60,765 nt of DNA from Actinomycetota bacterium. GTDB taxonomy: Bacteria; Actinomycetota; Acidimicrobiia; Acidimicrobiales; Ilumatobacteraceae. Within the stretch, counting starts at the first letter, position 1, and the number at the start of each line of letters is the position of its first letter. This document shows, piece after piece, positions 992 to 51,934 of this stretch. The notes under the pieces were generated by a model. It did not search any database, was not told the DNA's origin, and saw nothing but the letters and a program-made list of their open reading frames with translations. The translations under genes and the position numbers were made by a program. The stretch is from the NCBI GenBank assembly GCA_005778215.1, contig SXKB01000309.1:1-60765 (forward strand). Direction: 5' to 3'.

Positions 992-1067
992 GCCCCTCTA
1001 GCTCAATGGTTAGAGCAGTGGACTTTTAATCCATTGGTTCAGGGTTCGAGTCCCTGGGGGGGCACCA
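992..1067 (+). tRNA. tRNA-Lys: tRNA-Lys (anticodon UUU), CCA encoded
   Basis: Hand-folded cloverleaf: acceptor GCCCCTC/GGGGGGC, D arm GCTC-AATGGTTA-GAGC, anticodon arm GTGGA-CTTTTAA-TCCAT, variable loop TGGTT, T arm CAGGG-TTCGAGT-CCCTG, discriminator A, then CCA. The body is 73 nt. Confidence 0.93.
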
Positions 1068-15364: not shown

Positions 15365-16441
15365 ATGAAGCGGACGACCTCTCCTGCACGCCGGTTCGCG
15401 CGTGCCCTCGCACCCGTCACCCTCGCCGCGCTCGCGCTGGCCGCATGCGGCAGCTCCAGTTCGGAGTCGCCGTCCACCAGCATCCTGGTGGCACCGAAGA
15501 TCACGGTCACGTCGGTGAAGGGCGATCCGCGCAGCCAGTTGTTCGCGGCCATCTACGCCCGAGTGTTGGAGGACAACGGCTATCGCGTCTCGCGCAAGGA
15601 TCCGGTGGAGCTCGATCGTGCCGGCTATCTCGATGCGTTGGCGGCGGGCGAGTTCCAGGTCATCCCCGACAGCACGGGTGCGCTGCTGAGCTTCGCCTAC
15701 TCCCAGCCCGACGCGCCGGTGGCGCCCACCACGGTGGTGCCCGATGCGCCGGCCAGCACGGTGGCACCCGTCACCACGCCCACCCCCGACACGAGCGGCG
15801 CGAGCACCACGGCGGCCGCCGCCACCAGCACCACCGCGGCGGCCACCATCACGAACGGGCGGTCGGTGGCCGAGCAGCTGATCGCCATCCGTGCAGTGCT
15901 CGACGAAGCGGTCACGGTGGGCAACCCCACACAGGCCGAGGACAAGGCGGTCATCGCGTGTACGCAGGCCACCGTCGACCAGTTCGAGGACTCGCAGTTC
16001 GTGACGCTCACGAACCTGGCGTCGAACGCGCCGCAGATCCGCCTGGCCGGTTCGGCCGAGTGGCGTGACGACACCGAGGCCGGCCTGCCGGCGCTCGAGC
16101 TGTACTACGGCGGCGAGTTCCAGAGCATCGACACGGTGGAGGAGGCCGACATGGCCGCGGCCATCGACGACGATGCGGCCGACTGCTTCGCGTTGGGTTC
16201 GATGAACCCGGTGATCACCACGAAGCGCCTCACGATCCTGCAGGACGACAAGGCGATGGTGCGTGGCAACGCGTGGGTGCCGTTGATGGCGGCCACCATC
16301 GCGAACGCCGACGTGATCACGGCGCTCGATTCGGTGAACGTGGCGCTCACCAGCAACCGCCTGAACCAGATGTTCAACGAGATCGAGCAGAACGGCACCG
16401 ACCCCGCCGTCGTCGCCGACGCCTTCCTCGACACCCTCTGA
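15365..16441 (+). CDS. Glycine-betaine/osmoprotectant-type ABC substrate-binding lipoprotein (OpuAC-like)
   Basis: It has the lipobox LAACGS. OpuAC-like segments are present (GDPRSQLFAAIYARVLEDNGY..., AGEFQVIPDSTGALL, ...LQDDKAMVRGNAWVPL). A Pro/Thr/Ala-rich insert of about 50 aa sits in the middle. Confidence 0.8.
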   Translation: MKRTTSPARRFARALAPVTLAALALAACGSSSSESPSTSILVAPKITVTSVKGDPRSQLFAAIYARVLEDNGYRVSRKDPVELDRAGYLDALAAGEFQVIPDSTGALLSFAYSQPDAPVAPTTVVPDAPASTVAPVTTPTPDTSGASTTAAAATSTTAAATITNGRSVAEQLIAIRAVLDEAVTVGNPTQAEDKAVIACTQATVDQFEDSQFVTLTNLASNAPQIRLAGSAEWRDDTEAGLPALELYYGGEFQSIDTVEEADMAAAIDDDAADCFALGSMNPVITTKRLTILQDDKAMVRGNAWVPLMAATIANADVITALDSVNVALTSNRLNQMFNEIEQNGTDPAVVADAFLDTL

Positions 16442-16491
16442 GCCGCGCCGTCGTCGGAGCGGCGACGCCCGGTCCAGCCCGACTCGAGCGC

Positions 16492-16541
16492 TTCTGGGCA
16501 TGCCCAGAATGACCCCGGGGTGCTTCTGGGCATGCCCAGAA
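16492..16541. repeat. 50-bp double palindrome, left copy
   Basis: TTCTGGGCATGCCCAGAA-TGACCCCGGGGTGC-TTCTGGGCATGCCCAGAA. Both 18-mers are perfect palindromes, and the second extends to 20 bp (16523-16542). Their centres are 32 bp apart. Confidence 0.95.
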
Positions 16542-16557
16542 GTCGACCGCGTGGGAA

Positions 16558-17418
16558 ATGGTCGGGTGTCACCCCGCCATCGCGGGTTGGTCGCGTCGAC
16601 GGTCGATGGTTGACTGCGCGGGCATGGCTCGCCCTGCACCTCGCCTCCACGACCCACGGCTCGCGGCGCGACACCTCGACGAGCTCACCGCCATCATCGA
16701 CCGTGTCGGCCCGCCCGTCTGGATCGCCGGCGACACGCTGGCCGCGCTCTACGGCGTCGACGGCAGCACACTCGCCGCGCCGTACTCCTTCGCCGTCCCC
16801 CGCGGACGGGCACCTCACGTCAATGGCCACCACGTCCATCGCCTGCGCGATGTCTCCCGCCTCGACACCGCCACGGTGCTCGGCCTGCCCGGGTTGTCGG
16901 CCACCCGCCTGCTCATCGAATCCGCCGCCACGAAGGACGCCCGCCAGCTCACCGTGATGCTCGACTCCCTGCTGCGCGACGGGTTCACCAGTGAGGACTT
17001 CCTCCATCGCCGCATCATCGAACTGCGCCGCAAGGGCCGGCCCGGACTCGACCACCTCCTCGCCGTCATGGAGGGAGCCGAGCGCATCCGCGGCGGCCAC
17101 TCGTTCCTCGAGCGCGCCTACCTGTCGTACCTCGGCGAGATCGGCCTGCCCCGGCCCGACACGCAACAGGTGCTCGCCCGCCGCGGCGACACCCTCGTGC
17201 GCGTCGACTGTCACTTCCCCGGCACGAACATCGTGGTCGAACTGCTCGGCTACCGCTGGCACCGCACACAGGAGCAGATGGAGGTCGACGCCGCCCGCGT
17301 GAACGCGCTGCACCTCACCGGTCACGAGGTGTACCAGTTCACCTACGACCAGGTCACCCTGCGCACGTCGACCCTCGTCGACACGATGGCCGCACTCGCG
17401 CCCCGGCTCGTCCGCTGA
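16558..17418 (+). CDS. DUF559 (Vsr-like endonuclease fold) protein with an AbiEi-like N-terminal region
   Basis: The C-terminus reads ...HSFLERAYLSYLGEIGLPRPDTQQVL...VRVDCHFPGTNIVVELLGYRWHRT...DAARVNALHLTGHEVYQFTYDQV, typical of actinobacterial DUF559 proteins. The start is uncertain (ATGs at 16558, 16606, 16624). Confidence 0.8.
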   Translation: MVGCHPAIAGWSRRRSMVDCAGMARPAPRLHDPRLAARHLDELTAIIDRVGPPVWIAGDTLAALYGVDGSTLAAPYSFAVPRGRAPHVNGHHVHRLRDVSRLDTATVLGLPGLSATRLLIESAATKDARQLTVMLDSLLRDGFTSEDFLHRRIIELRRKGRPGLDHLLAVMEGAERIRGGHSFLERAYLSYLGEIGLPRPDTQQVLARRGDTLVRVDCHFPGTNIVVELLGYRWHRTQEQMEVDAARVNALHLTGHEVYQFTYDQVTLRTSTLVDTMAALAPRLVR

Positions 17419-17464
17419 CCCGGCGACGCCACGGCGTCGCCCCCGTCGCCCCCCGATCTCCGGC

Positions 17465-17514
17465 TTCCGGGCATGCCCAGAACGACCCCGGGGTGGTTCT
17501 GGGCATGCCCAGAA
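17465..17514. repeat. 50-bp double palindrome, right copy
   Basis: TTCCGGGCATGCCCAGAA-CGACCCCGGGGTGG-TTCTGGGCATGCCCAGAA. It is 47/50 identical to the left copy. One arm substitution occurs in the first 18-mer. Confidence 0.95.
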
Positions 17515-17579
17515 ACGGCACCGGACCGGCCCTCTGAGCCGCGCCCGGACCGACGACGGCACTGCCGTAGAGTGCCGCC

Positions 17580-18500
17580 ATGATTCGCGTCGACGGGATG
17601 ACGAAGCGCTTCGGCTCGAAGACCGCCGTCGACCACCTCTCGTTCGACGTGCGACCCGGCGTGGTGACCGGCTTCCTCGGCCCGAACGGCTAGGGCAAGA
17701 GCACCACCATGCGCTGCATGCTCGACCTCGACCGCGCCGACAGCGGCACCGCCACCTTCGACGGCCGCCGCTTCCGCGACCTGCACCGCCCCCTCCACGA
17801 AGTGGGCGCCCTGCTCGACGCCGGCTACGTGCACCCCGGGCGCAGCGGCCGCAACCACCTGCGCTGGCTCGCCGCCACCAACGGCATCGGCATGGCCCGG
17901 GTGAACACCGTGCTCGAACAGGTCGGCCTCACCGCCGCCGCCGATGCCCGCCTGCGCTCGTACTCGCTCGGCATGCGCCAGCGGCTCGGCATCGCCGCCG
18001 TGCTGCTCGGCGACCCGCAGACCATCATCCTCGACGAACCCGCCAACGGCCTCGACCCCGAAGGCATCCGCTGGATCCGCGACACCCTCTCGTGGCTGGC
18101 CGGCCAGGGCCGCACCGTCCTGGTGAGCAGCCACCAGCTCAGCGAGATGGCGCTCATCGCCCACGACCTGGTGGTGATCGGGCAGGGCCGGCTGATCGAG
18201 CAGTCCACCGTCGCCGGCTTCGTGGCCGAACACGCCGATACCTGGGTACGCGTGCAGAGCCCCACCGTCGGCGCCCTCGTCCCCCACCTCACCGCACTCG
18301 GCGCCGCGGTCACCACCATCGACCCCACCACCGTCGACGTGCGCGGCACCACCAGCGCCACCGTCGGCGAGCTCGCCGCCCACCACGGCGTGGTGCTGCA
18401 CGAACTGGCCACCCAGACCGGCTCGCTGGAGGACGCCTTCCTGAAGGCCACCGCCGAGTCCGTCGAGTACCACTCGGGCCCGATGGGAGACCCGTCGTGA
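17580..18500 (+). pseudogene. ABC-2-type transporter ATP-binding protein interrupted by an in-frame TAG inside Walker A
   Basis: [50 protein letters not shown]... The stop is codon 38 (17691-17693). The remainder is an intact reading frame with signature YSLGMRQRL and Walker B IILDEP. Confidence 0.8.
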
Positions 18501-51127: not shown

Positions 51128-51934
51128 GTGCCCAAGCCCTTCGAACCCGTGCGCATCGAGTCGGCCGACGACGAGCGCATCGTCGACTACGTGGGCCTGC
51201 GCGACCGCAAGGAGAGCGACCAGTACCTCATCGCCGAGACCGCGCCGGTGGTGGAACGCCTGCTCGCGTCGACGTTCAAGGTGCGCTCGTTCCTGCTCAC
51301 CGAAAAGGGGTACGCCCGCCTGAAGCCGGCCATCGACGCGGCCACCCTGCCGGCGCCGGTGTATCTGGCCGAGCGCGACGTGATGGAGCAGATCACCGGA
51401 TTCGACATCCACCGCGGGGTGCTCGCCTCGGCGCGTCGGCCCTCGCAACGCACGCTCGGCGACCTGCTGTCGCGTTCGAAGCGCATCATCATCCTCGAGG
51501 GTTCCAACGACCACGAGAACATCGGCGTGGTGGCGCGCTCGGCACGCGCCCTCGGCTTCGACGCGATGGTGCTCGACCCGTCGTGCGCCGACCCGTACTA
51601 CCGGCGCAGTGTGCGAGTGTCGATGGGCGAGATCTTCCATCTCCCCATCACCCGCTGCACGAAGTGGCCAGAGCCGTTGGAGTTCATCGCGCAGCAGGGG
51701 TTCGAGACCTGGGCGCTCACCCCCGACGCCGACGCCGAGAACCTGTTCACGATGGGCATGCCCGACAAGGTGGCGTTGCTGGCCGGCGCCGAGGGGCCGG
51801 GCCTCACGCCGATGGCCCGGGCGCGCACGCACTACGACGTGCGCATTCCGATGCACCACGGGGTCGACTCGTTGAACCTCGGGCACGCGTTGGCCATCGC
51901 GATGGCCGCCGTGTCACCCCCTGTTCAGGACTGA
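51128..51934 (+). CDS. TrmH/SpoU-family RNA 2'-O-methyltransferase
   Basis: IILEGSNDHENIGVVARSARALG...ALLAGAEGPGLT...IPMHHGVDSLNLGHA. It has a GTG start. Confidence 0.9.
   Translation: MPKPFEPVRIESADDERIVDYVGLRDRKESDQYLIAETAPVVERLLASTFKVRSFLLTEKGYARLKPAIDAATLPAPVYLAERDVMEQITGFDIHRGVLASARRPSQRTLGDLLSRSKRIIILEGSNDHENIGVVARSARALGFDAMVLDPSCADPYYRRSVRVSMGEIFHLPITRCTKWPEPLEFIAQQGFETWALTPDADAENLFTMGMPDKVALLAGAEGPGLTPMARARTHYDVRIPMHHGVDSLNLGHALAIAMAAVSPPVQD

What the first reader, a model, noticed from the sequence alone, without database searches (positions are those of the whole stretch)
16450..17529. DUF559 (Vsr-like endonuclease) gene bracketed by two copies of a 50-bp double palindrome
Seen: 16492-16541 reads TTCTGGGCATGCCCAGAA-TGACCCCGGGGTGC-TTCTGGGCATGCCCAGAA. 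17465-17514 reads TTCCGGGCATGCCCAGAA-CGACCCCGGGGTGG-TTCTGGGCATGCCCAGAA, which is 47/50 identical. Three of the four 18-mers are perfect palindromes and one extends to 20 bp. The centres within a unit are 32 bp apart, about three helical turns. The spacer has its own CCCCGGGG core. Because each 18-mer is self-complementary, the two in a unit can also pair with each other (18-bp stem, 14-nt loop). The only gene between the units is a 286-aa AbiEi-like/DUF559 ORF, with its own small hairpin after the stop (GGCGACGCC-AC-GGCGTCGCC, 17422-17441). Inference: several readings are possible. The palindromes could be the termini of a small selfish or mobilisable cassette, the recognition or cleavage sites of the encoded endonuclease-fold protein, or paired operator/insulator hairpins. 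Multi-copy DUF559 genes in Actinomycetota have, as far as I know, no established mobility mechanism, so a gene with defined repeat ends would be informative.
Basis: partly seen in the sequence, partly recalled or inferred. Interest (0 to 1): 0.72.

Follow-up and report, generated by a model that had tools for sequence, protein, structure and literature searches.

The report
Nuclease gene bracketed by its own palindromic sites
A small inserted cassette holds a gene for a DNA-binding nuclease between two copies of a 50-bp palindrome that is almost certainly that protein's own binding site, and the same layout recurs across a large, undescribed actinobacterial protein family.

Summary
Two near-perfect 50-bp palindromes (16492-16541 and 17465-17514, 47/50 identical) flank one gene (16606-17418).

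The protein combines an AbiEi/Rv2827c-like DNA-binding region with a Vsr/DUF559-like nuclease domain. The putative catalytic residues are invariant.

- **Not a local accident.** In 48 of 68 loci encoding relatives, the up- and downstream flanks share a 40-70-bp dyad-symmetric repeat (control 1/68). The sequence is lineage-specific. The copies are direct. A T(T/C)TG(T/G)G motif sits about 23 bp from the centre.
- **Same design as a known operator.** Rv2827c, the closest solved structure, binds 23-bp inverted repeats separated by 13 bp.
- **The cassette was inserted.** Three relatives have the binding-protein gene overlapping the ABC ATPase start (ATGA) with nothing between them. The window carries a degenerate duplicate of the binding-protein gene's 3' end at the right junction.
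- **Solo units exist.** A related metagenome-assembled genome holds at least 15 solo copies of the 50-mer in intergenic DNA, 12 of them inside a MITE-like repeat.

Best reading: these are the protein's cognate sites. The upstream copy acts as an operator, and the sites are probably also nuclease targets. The logic resembles REPIN-RAYT, but with an unrelated enzyme. The mechanism is unproven.

The parts
15365..16441 (+). OpuAC-type substrate-binding protein gene. The cassette was inserted at its 3' end.
   Evidence: Pfam OpuAC, E = 9.6e-18. Gene call taken from the near-identical contigs L181/L182. In relatives L183, L184 and L186 its stop codon overlaps the ABC ATPase start.
16388..16467 (+). 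Left copy of the duplicated target: the 3' end of the binding-protein gene plus about 26 bp downstream. It contains the perfect 16-bp repeat at 16434-16449.
   Evidence: Gapped local alignment to 17510-17558 scores 55.6, against shuffles of 28 +/- 4.8 (maximum 46). The 16-bp repeat is D12.
16492..16541 (.). Left (upstream) 50-bp unit: 18-bp palindrome, 14-bp spacer with a CCCCGGGG core, 18-bp palindrome. Putative operator and protein site.
   Evidence: It lies 65 bp upstream of the called start. An equivalent unit sits upstream of relatives' genes.
16566..16574 (+). GTGTCACCC motif between the left unit and the gene.
   Evidence: The same 9-mer follows the unit in L049, L101 and the 12 MITE-like copies of MAG JBDKJP. 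TGTGTCACC forms the arm of the units in other lineages. Its role is unknown.
16606..17418 (+). Gene for a 270-aa protein with an AbiEi/Rv2827c-like region (residues about 1-172 of the 264-aa query that starts at 16624) and a Vsr/DUF559-like nuclease domain (about 175-264).
   Evidence: Called as 270 aa in L181/L182. AlphaFold model pLDDT 86. Foldseek hits: 1zel (Rv2827c), 3r3p (I-Bth0305I catalytic domain) and 3hrl (DUF559 protein). D195, E206, H213 and D222 are invariant in 29 sequences. PADLOC AbiEi models hit family members.
17422..17441 (+). Small GC hairpin after the stop codon. Possibly a terminator. Not conserved.
   Evidence: z = -2.05. Absent in L101. No T-tract terminator found.
17465..17514 (.). 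Right (downstream) 50-bp unit, a direct copy of the left unit.
   Evidence: Direct orientation is favoured here (48 against 46 matches) and clearly in asymmetric lineages.
17510..17558 (+). Right, degenerate copy of the duplicated target. It reads N-G-T-G-P-A-L-stop and contains the 16-bp repeat at 17530-17545. It abuts the unit through a shared CAGAA.
17580..18500 (+). ABC-2-type transporter ATPase, the downstream half of the interrupted operon. It carries a window-specific in-frame TAG at 17691-17693.
   Evidence: Pfam ABC_tran. Translation. C at 17692 in both near-identical assemblies.

Best explanation
The two 50-bp units are the cognate DNA sites of the protein encoded between them. That protein joins an AbiEi/Rv2827c-type DNA-binding region to a Vsr/DUF559-type nuclease domain.

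**Shown**
- Gene plus two direct copies of the site form a discrete cassette. In this lineage it was inserted at the 3' end of the binding-protein gene of a binding-protein/ABC-exporter operon.
- The arrangement 'gene flanked by two copies of a lineage-specific, dyad-symmetric 40-70-bp unit' is a family trait.

**Inferred**
- Two protomers bind the outer T(T/C)TG(T/G)G motifs about 23 bp either side of the dyad, as Rv2827c binds 23-bp inverted repeats separated by 13 bp.
- This places the nuclease domains over the central spacer. I-Bth0305I, a Vsr-fold homing endonuclease, works in a comparable way: it is a homodimer with a footprint of about 60 bp and a central 14-bp pseudopalindrome.
- The upstream unit serves as an autorepression operator for a potentially toxic nuclease. 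The downstream unit is a second site, used for looping, as a roadblock, or as a boundary.

**More speculative**
- Cutting or nicking at the units creates the breaks that account for three things: the cassette's insertion, the breaks in gene order exactly at the left unit in close relatives, and the spread of solo and MITE-like copies.
- On this view the gene and its repeats form a persistent, mostly vertically inherited partnership. It is comparable in logic to REPIN-RAYT but uses an unrelated enzyme.
For: **Family-wide link between gene and repeat**
- 48 of 68 homologue loci share a repeat of at least 30 bits between the up- and downstream flanks; the swapped-partner control gives 1 of 68.
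- The units differ between lineages but match within a locus, up to 100% over 50 bp.
- A third copy within about 4 kb occurs in only 1 of 31 loci, so the units are specific to this gene's flanks.
- Two more distant relatives (profile E = 1e-38 to 1e-49) have palindromes on both sides. Two others have one upstream only.

**Geometry of the units**
- The units are dyad-symmetric: on average 21 of 30 positions are complementary, against 15.4 for controls.
- The outer motif starts at -23/-24 in 12-13 of 19 distinct lineages.
- The motif-plus-dyad scan hits 32 of 65 loci, against 2 of 195 control windows.

**The protein**
- Structural matches to Rv2827c, I-Bth0305I and a DUF559 protein.
- AbiEi profile hits in family members.
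- Invariant D195, E206, H213 and D222.

**Precedents**
- Rv2827c and AbiEi operators are paired 23-bp inverted repeats with 13-bp or 3-bp gaps that overlap the promoter (PMC7319586).
- I-Bth0305I's footprint (PMC3239194).

**Insertion**
- Empty sites with the same neighbouring genes in L183, L184 and L186.
- The target is duplicated in the window.
- A second locus (DUF459 gene / enoyl-CoA hydratase gene) shows presence or absence of the cassette.

**Solo units**
- At least 15 in MAG JBDKJP, 3 in JANMFL, and 1 each in CAWGHJ, JBMOGW and JANOET. They are intergenic and often lie between convergent genes.
- The left flank is not conserved between the window, L101 and L049, although the cassette and the ABC genes are shared.
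Against: - No binding or cleavage has been shown.
- The third residue of the E-x-D-G motif of DUF559 is Leu here (ELLG), so the nuclease could be inactive or specialised.
- The gene is single-copy where this can be judged. Its divergence tracks that of its neighbour (r = 0.67), and its context is conserved within clades. Regulation alone could therefore explain the conservation.
- The empty sites carry no solo unit, so the unit is not simply a pre-existing target.
- There is no general target-site duplication.
- Most solo copies in JBDKJP sit in a longer repeat with its own tentative terminal inverted repeats, which another enzyme could move.
- The copy number in the window's own genome is unknown: the 60-kb window holds only these two units.
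- Two of four distant relatives lack the downstream copy.
Confidence: 0.5

Rival explanations
1. Regulation only. The units are AbiEi-type operators. The upstream one represses the promoter. The downstream one supports a repression loop or acts as a protein roadblock or insulator. The nuclease domain works elsewhere, for example as a defence or toxin effector. The cassette arrived by ordinary horizontal transfer and illegitimate recombination. The solo copies are an unrelated MITE that happens to carry an operator.
For: - The design is the same as the experimentally mapped Rv2827c/AbiEi operators.
- The upstream unit is the most universal element; distant relatives L196 and L198 have it alone, as does L121.
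- Context is conserved and the gene co-diverges with its neighbours.
- 12 of 15 solo copies lie in a longer repeat with its own ends.
- No hits in plasmids or phages.
Against: - The downstream copy is kept in direct orientation at 90-100% identity, spacer included, in most lineages. That is more than operator function requires.
- Solo units sit mainly between convergent genes, where there is no promoter to regulate.
- Plain solo units without the MITE context exist (L051, L052, L067, L003, L015, L035, L037, L062, L074).
- Breaks in gene order fall exactly at the left unit.
- The nuclease residues are invariant.
Confidence: 0.3
2. Recombination-site cassette. The direct repeats are sites for a recombinase supplied from elsewhere in the genome, as with integron attC sites or Xer/dif modules. 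The circle 'gene plus one unit' excises and integrates at solo units, and the encoded protein is only cargo or a regulator.
For: - Direct orientation of the flanking units.
- Solo units exist.
- Variable cargo: an extra ribbon-helix-helix gene inside the L049 cassette.
- Hairpin-forming sites.
Against: - The empty sites have no solo unit.
- The unit sequence co-varies with the encoded protein across lineages, which points to that protein as the reader of the site.
- The unit (18 + 14 + 18 bp) does not resemble the 28-bp dif layout (own knowledge).
- No arrays of cassettes were seen.
- No recombinase gene was looked for systematically.
Confidence: 0.07
3. Generic REP-like or terminator hairpins that accumulate in intergenic DNA and flank this gene by chance or through an insertion preference, with no link to the protein.
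For: - Solo copies are scattered through unrelated intergenic regions of a related MAG.
- The units form strong hairpins and sit just after stop codons.
Against: - 48 of 68 loci against 1 of 68 controls. The unit sequences are unrelated between lineages but identical on the two sides of the gene.
- Neighbouring genes in the same loci are not flanked by them.
- No T-tract terminators.
- No bias between G.T and A.C mismatches, which a strand-specific RNA hairpin would be expected to show (25 against 22).
Confidence: 0.04

Closest known systems
AbiEi / Rv2827c antitoxin-repressors of type IV toxin-antitoxin systems and their operators
   Same: - Rv2827c (1zel) is the best structural match for the N-terminal ~170 residues.
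- AbiEi profiles hit family members.
- The operators are pairs of ~23-bp inverted repeats with a 13-bp gap (Rv2827c) or 3-bp gap (AbiEi) that overlap the promoter (PMC7319586). This is the same design and position as the upstream unit.
   Different: - No AbiEii toxin gene follows. Instead the AbiEi-like region is fused to a Vsr-like nuclease domain.
- A second copy of the site lies downstream of the gene.
- Solo copies occur elsewhere in related genomes.
REPIN-RAYT systems (REP doublets and REP-associated tyrosine transposases)
   Same: - The gene is flanked by its repeat type.
- Each gene lineage has its own repeat sequence.
- The gene is apparently single-copy, vertically inherited and persistent.
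- The repeat is two inverted arms with a spacer, forming a long hairpin.
- Extra copies lie in intergenic DNA (PMC3337134).
   Different: - The enzyme is a PD-(D/E)xK / Vsr-fold nuclease with a winged-helix region, not an HUH/Y1 IS200-like transposase.
- The flanking units are direct repeats.
- Only about 1-17 copies per genome were seen, not hundreds.
- The host is Actinomycetota (Acidimicrobiia-like), not Proteobacteria.
EDxHD-family homing endonuclease I-Bth0305I (Vsr-fold)
   Same: - The catalytic-domain fold matches (3r3p, probability 1.0, TM 0.64 on the target).
- It is multidomain and homodimeric, with a ~60-bp footprint and a central 14-bp pseudopalindrome (PMC3239194). This matches the size and symmetry of the unit.
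   Different: - The gene is not in an intron, intein or phage (no phage hits).
- It is flanked by two intact sites rather than splitting a single site.
- The empty alleles carry no site.
DUF559 (PF04480) / Vsr very-short-patch-repair endonucleases
   Same: Weak Pfam similarity over the C-terminal ~55 residues. Structural match to the DUF559 protein 3hrl. The G-x-x-W-H-type motif and the acidic residues are conserved.
   Different: - Below the Pfam gathering score.
- The E-x-D-G motif reads E-L-L-G.
- No associated cytosine methyltransferase was seen next to the gene.
- There is an extra DNA-binding region, and the gene has dedicated flanking sites.

Membership tests
Pfam DUF559 (PF04480) | Score at or above the curated gathering threshold (20.6 bits) | tested here: not met
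   16.8-17.0 bits for the window protein. 14 of 29 family members give E < 0.01, best 6e-5. No NCBIfam model matches.
Vsr/DUF559-like PD-(D/E)xK nuclease fold | Core nuclease fold with conserved acidic and histidine residues | tested here: met
   Foldseek matches 3r3p and 3hrl with probability 0.98-1.0, from a model of pLDDT 86. D195, E206, H213 and D222 are invariant. Catalytic activity cannot be tested with these tools.
AbiEi antitoxin (type IV TA) | N-terminal winged-helix region plus AbiEi C-terminal domain | tested here: met
   1zel (Rv2827c) is the top structural match: 167 columns, probability 1.0, but TM only 0.37. PADLOC AbiEi models hit P0036 and P0105 (E = 3e-9) but not the window protein itself.
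AbiEi antitoxin (type IV TA) | Bicistronic operon with an AbiEii nucleotidyltransferase toxin | tested here: not met
   The only ORF between the units is this gene, and the next gene is an ABC ATPase. An AbiEii-like ORF lies upstream of the cassette in L101 only, outside the units.
AbiEi antitoxin (type IV TA) | Paired inverted-repeat operator upstream of the gene | tested here: met
   The unit lies 65-132 bp upstream of the candidate start codons, with 18-bp arms and a 14-bp gap. Compare the 23-bp repeats with a 13-bp gap of Rv2827c. Binding was not tested.
REPIN-RAYT | The associated gene encodes an HUH/Y1 (IS200-like) transposase | tested here: not met
   The protein has an AbiEi-like region plus a Vsr-like nuclease domain.
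REPIN-RAYT | Gene flanked by its repeats, with a specific repeat type for each gene lineage | tested here: met
   The orientation is direct.
REPIN-RAYT | Repeats dispersed in many copies per genome; gene single-copy and vertically inherited | tested here: inconclusive
   At least 15 solo units in one MAG and 1-3 in four others. The window's own genome was not scanned. Context is conserved and the gene co-diverges with its neighbour. Copy number per complete genome was not measured.
Homing endonuclease gene (EDxHD family) | Insertion splits the recognition site, and the empty allele carries an intact site | tested here: not met
   Both flanks carry complete units. The empty alleles L183, L184, L186 and L189 have no unit.
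Insertion sequence / transposon | Terminal inverted repeats, short target-site duplication, several copies per genome | tested here: not met
   The units are direct repeats. There is no general flanking duplication; the window has a long, degenerate one of about 50-80 bp. Only one gene copy was seen among the fetched loci of MAG JBDKJP.
Rfam RNA families | Match to a curated covariance model | tested here: not met
   Only a tRNA in the window. In the related loci there were only sub-threshold microRNA-hairpin hits on the units.

The most novel reading that the evidence does not exclude
A previously unrecognised class of nuclease-repeat partnership in Actinomycetota. Proteins that fuse an AbiEi-like DNA-binding region to a Vsr-fold nuclease domain form a superfamily of thousands of sequence clusters. 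On this reading they recognise and cut their own long palindromic sites. They thereby drive the insertion or excision of their cassette and the spread of solo and MITE-like copies. This would be a REPIN-RAYT-like system built on an unrelated enzyme, and it would give the multi-member 'DUF559/AbiEi' proteins of actinobacteria a mechanism.
Probability: 0.3. Interest if true: 0.85.

Novelty: new variant of a known kind. Interest (0 to 1): 0.72.

Why it matters
- **A function for an unannotated family.** These proteins are annotated at most as 'hypothetical' or 'very-short-patch-repair endonuclease'. A profile search finds 14,732 representative clusters at E <= 1e-3 and 6,169 at E <= 1e-10. A conserved, sequence-defined DNA partner on both sides of the gene gives a directly testable hypothesis for what they bind, and probably cut.
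- **A second kind of gene-repeat partnership.** If the nuclease acts on the units, this would be an independent example of a persistent, vertically inherited partnership like REPIN-RAYT, in high-GC Gram-positive bacteria.
- **A source of genome rearrangement.** It would also help explain operon disruption and breaks in gene order in these genomes.
- **Still of interest if purely regulatory.** A nuclease gene enclosed between two copies of its own operator would be an unusual control design.

I found no paper describing this arrangement in the searchable library.

Tried and rejected
- **Known RNA:** no Rfam family matches the units or the longer repeat.
- **Strand-specific RNA hairpin:** G.T-type and A.C-type mismatches inside the arms are balanced, 25 against 22.
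- **Promoter or terminator:** the consensus scan found none in 16300-17700.
- **Plasmid or phage carriage:** no tblastn hit, even at E = 1e-3.
- **General target-site duplication:** not found in the other loci. The two high scores were an artefact (L108) and tandem extra units (L179).
- **More copies in the window:** no further unit and no MITE-flank sequence in the 60 kb. The GGGCATGCCC at 51753 is coding sequence.
- **Sequence-level match to solved structures:** none. NCBIfam: none.
- **Solo unit at the ABC locus of CAWGHJ:** L015 does not hold the ABC orthologue. The true orthologous site, L183, is empty.
- **Perfect-palindrome search:** a search for perfect palindromes of at least 14 bp missed most units. 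I replaced it with a test that compares the flank upstream of each gene with the flank downstream.
- **Cap on the genome-wide pattern scan:** it returned exactly 100 stretches and may be capped, so the solo-unit counts are lower bounds.
Full report
**1. The observation**

The window contains exactly four matches to TTCTGGGCATGCCCAGAA at up to 3 mismatches. They lie at 16492, 16524, 17465 (one mismatch) and 17497. The chance expectation is 0.01.

They form two 50-bp units that are 47/50 identical. Each unit as a whole is a near-perfect palindrome, with 26-nt arms that are 92% complementary and no gap. As single-stranded DNA the units fold at -27 and -25.4 kcal/mol (z = -9.5 and -6.2).

One gene lies between them. 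Two near-identical assemblies call it at window 16606-17418, 270 aa.

**2. The protein**

Sequence databases say little:
- Pfam gives only a sub-threshold DUF559 hit (17 bits against 20.6).
- NCBIfam gives nothing.

Structure is more informative. An AlphaFold model built from 29 homologues has mean pLDDT 86. Its best matches among solved structures are:
- Rv2827c, the M. tuberculosis AbiEi-family antitoxin-repressor (1zel), for the first ~170 residues.
- The catalytic domain of the Vsr-fold homing endonuclease I-Bth0305I (3r3p), for the last ~90 residues.
- A DUF559 protein (3hrl), also for the last ~90 residues.

PADLOC AbiEi profiles hit family members. D195, E206, H213, D222 and other residues are invariant in the alignment, so the nuclease site looks maintained. 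However, the DUF559 E-x-D-G motif reads E-L-L-G here.

A profile search of 1.84 billion representative proteins finds 14,732 clusters at E <= 1e-3 and 6,169 at E <= 1e-10. Named sources are Ilumatobacteraceae, Microthrixaceae and unclassified Actinomycetota. There are no hits in plasmid or phage collections.

**3. The link between gene and palindrome is a family trait**

I fetched 80 metagenome loci encoding relatives at 47-92% identity.
- Of the 68 with enough flank on both sides, 48 share a repeat of at least 30 bits between the upstream and downstream flanks.
- Pairing each upstream flank with another locus's downstream flank gives 1 of 68.

The repeats have these properties:
- They are 40-70 bp long and dyad-symmetric (21 of 30 complementary positions on average, against 15.4 for controls).
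- They are very different between lineages. Examples are TTCTGTGAATTCACAGAA..., GTTTGTGTCACCGA... and CGTGAATGCAATGG....
- Within a locus the two copies are 90-100% identical.
- Where a unit is asymmetric enough to tell, the two copies are direct repeats: 19 loci favour direct, 5 favour inverted by only 1-3 nt, and 2 are equal.
- A motif T(T/C)TG(T/G)G or TTCTCG starts 23-24 nt from the dyad centre in 12-13 of 19 distinct lineages.
- Other genes in the same loci are not flanked by the unit. A third copy occurs in 1 of 31 loci.

Four more distant relatives gave a mixed picture. Two have palindromes on both sides (L192, L193). Two have one only upstream (L196, L198). L121 also has only the upstream unit. 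The upstream unit is therefore the most universal element.

**4. Precedent for the site design**

Rv2827c binds pairs of 23-bp inverted repeats separated by 13 bp, within -1 to -131 of its start codon. AbiEi binds two 23-bp repeats separated by 3 bp. Both repress their own promoter (PMC7319586).

The window unit has 18-bp arms and a 14-bp spacer. It ends 65 bp before the called start codon, so it has the same design and position.

I-Bth0305I is a multidomain homodimer with a footprint of about 60 bp centred on a 14-bp pseudopalindrome at the cleavage site (PMC3239194). This matches the size and symmetry of the unit.

**5. The cassette was inserted**

The window is 99.96% and 99.83% identical to two public contigs of the same species (L181; L182 = GCA_005798505.1). 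There are no differences within the cassette.

Three more distant relatives (L183, L184, L186) keep the same gene order: FtsK-like gene, amino oxidase, OpuAC binding protein, ABC ATPase, ABC-2 permease, Crp-like regulator, IspDF. In all three, the binding-protein stop codon overlaps the ATPase start (ATGA) and nothing lies between them.

In the window, the sequence just right of the right unit (17510-17558) is a degenerate duplicate of the binding-protein gene's 3' end and what follows it (16388-16467). The alignment scores 55.6, against shuffles of 28 +/- 4.8 with a maximum of 46. The junction shares CAGAA with the edge of the unit. The insertion therefore duplicated about 50-80 bp of target.

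The closest relatives that carry the cassette (L101, protein 92% identical; L049, 81%) share the unit-gene-unit-ABC arrangement. Their sequence to the left of the left unit is completely different. It includes an AbiEii-like gene in L101, and L049 has an extra ribbon-helix-helix gene inside the cassette.

A second locus shows presence or absence of the cassette. It lies between a DUF459 gene and a convergent enoyl-CoA hydratase gene. L102, L104, L105, L112 and L118 carry the cassette. L189 is empty with a 9-bp intergenic gap, and L191 with a 56-bp gap. L188 and L190 hold other content.

Within that clade the gene's divergence tracks that of its neighbour (r = 0.67), and context is conserved among close relatives. 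The cassette is therefore mostly inherited vertically, with occasional gain or loss. Some copies are decaying: L085 is fragmentary, and L049 has a 1-bp deletion.

**6. Solo units**

I scanned one genome per species for the 18-mer. MAG JBDKJP is the closest such genome, at about 91% nucleotide identity in the ABC genes.

| Genome | Units found |
|---|---|
| JBDKJP | 2 gene-flanking units plus 15 solo double units on other contigs |
| JANMFL | 3 solo |
| CAWGHJ | 1 solo |
| JBMOGW | 1 solo |
| JANOET | 1 solo |

The solo units are intergenic and often lie between convergent genes.

Twelve of the JBDKJP copies sit at a fixed position inside a longer (~165-250 bp) repeat. This repeat has further hairpins and tentative terminal inverted repeats (GGCAGTTCGGCAC / GTGCCGAGTGCC).

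Even so, the gene-unit link across lineages rules out a generic REP reading.

**7. Mechanism**

*Shown:*
- The cassette is discrete and was inserted.
- Flanking direct copies of a lineage-specific dyad-symmetric site are a family trait.
- The protein has an AbiEi-like region plus a Vsr-like nuclease domain.

*Inferred with good support:* the units are the protein's binding sites, and the upstream one is an autoregulatory operator.

*Inferred with weak support:* the nuclease acts at the units. This would explain the conserved downstream copy, the solo and MITE-like copies, the breaks in gene order at the left unit, and the insertion itself.

The arms' mismatches show no strand bias, and the outer motif sits at a fixed distance from the centre. 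This is consistent with recognition of duplex DNA by a symmetric oligomer, but it does not exclude cruciform or hairpin forms.

**8. Comparison and novelty**

The system works like an AbiEi-type autoregulated gene and, in its logic, like REPIN-RAYT. It fails the defining tests for each of the following:
- RAYT: no HUH/Y1 enzyme.
- A classical homing endonuclease gene: the sites are intact, and the empty alleles lack a site.
- An insertion sequence: the repeats are direct, and the gene is single-copy.
- An AbiE toxin-antitoxin pair: there is no AbiEii partner.

Full-text searches found no description of this arrangement. I rate it a new variant of known kinds, with a 0.3 chance that it represents a new class of nuclease-driven repeat system.

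Noticed in passing
window 17691-17693: There is an in-frame TAG inside the Walker A motif of the ABC ATPase (GPNG*GKST). Two near-identical assemblies (L181, L182) and the orthologue in L049 have TCG (Ser) here. This is a strain-specific nonsense mutation or a sequencing error in the gene just downstream of the cassette.
   Followed up: yes
L072:2703-2749, L089:4176-4222, L042:100-146 (MAG JBDKJP): A second dispersed 47-bp palindrome family, TTCTGGGTGGTTTCCGTCCCGG.ATCCGGGACGGAAACCACCCAGAA. It has the same outer TTCTGG...CCAGAA arms and the same overall length as the 50-mer, and is sometimes stacked in the same MITE-like repeat. It may be a second site type for the same or a paralogous protein.
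   Followed up: partly
L004, L064, L042 (MAG JBDKJP; alignment): A further hairpin repeat, GTGGGCATGGAATGTTGCGC...GCGCAACATTCCATGCCCAC, is appended to some copies of the longer repeat. The intergenic repeats of this MAG are modular and stacked.
   Followed up: no
L049:5604-5882: The orthologous cassette in MAG JBDKJP carries an extra ribbon-helix-helix (CopG-type) ORF between the nuclease gene and the right unit. The units there are 1443 bp apart instead of 973 bp. The nuclease gene has a 1-bp deletion relative to the window.
   Followed up: partly
L101:682-2058: An AbiEii-type nucleotidyltransferase toxin ORF lies upstream of the cassette in the 92%-identical relative. In that genome the binding-protein gene is absent, so the left flank looks like a variable toxin-antitoxin or defence region.
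   Followed up: partly
window 16566-16574; also L049, L101 and the JBDKJP repeat copies: The 9-mer GTGTCACCC recurs 18-40 bp after the unit in the gene-flanking copies and in the MITE-like copies. TGTGTCACC is the arm sequence of the units in other lineages. Its role is unknown.
   Followed up: partly
L190:4440-4545: At the DUF459 locus of another relative, the place of the cassette is taken by a different repeat, CGAGTGTTTCCGGCC, present in direct and inverted copies, followed by unrelated ORFs. This intergenic spot seems to collect insertions.
   Followed up: no
L154:3847-3884 and L179 flanks: Some loci have an additional tandem or partial copy of the unit next to the upstream one.
   Followed up: no
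window 992-1064; L064:5504-5610: A tRNA gene is the only Rfam match in the window. A TPP riboswitch lies near one solo unit in MAG JBDKJP. Both appear unrelated to the finding.
   Followed up: no
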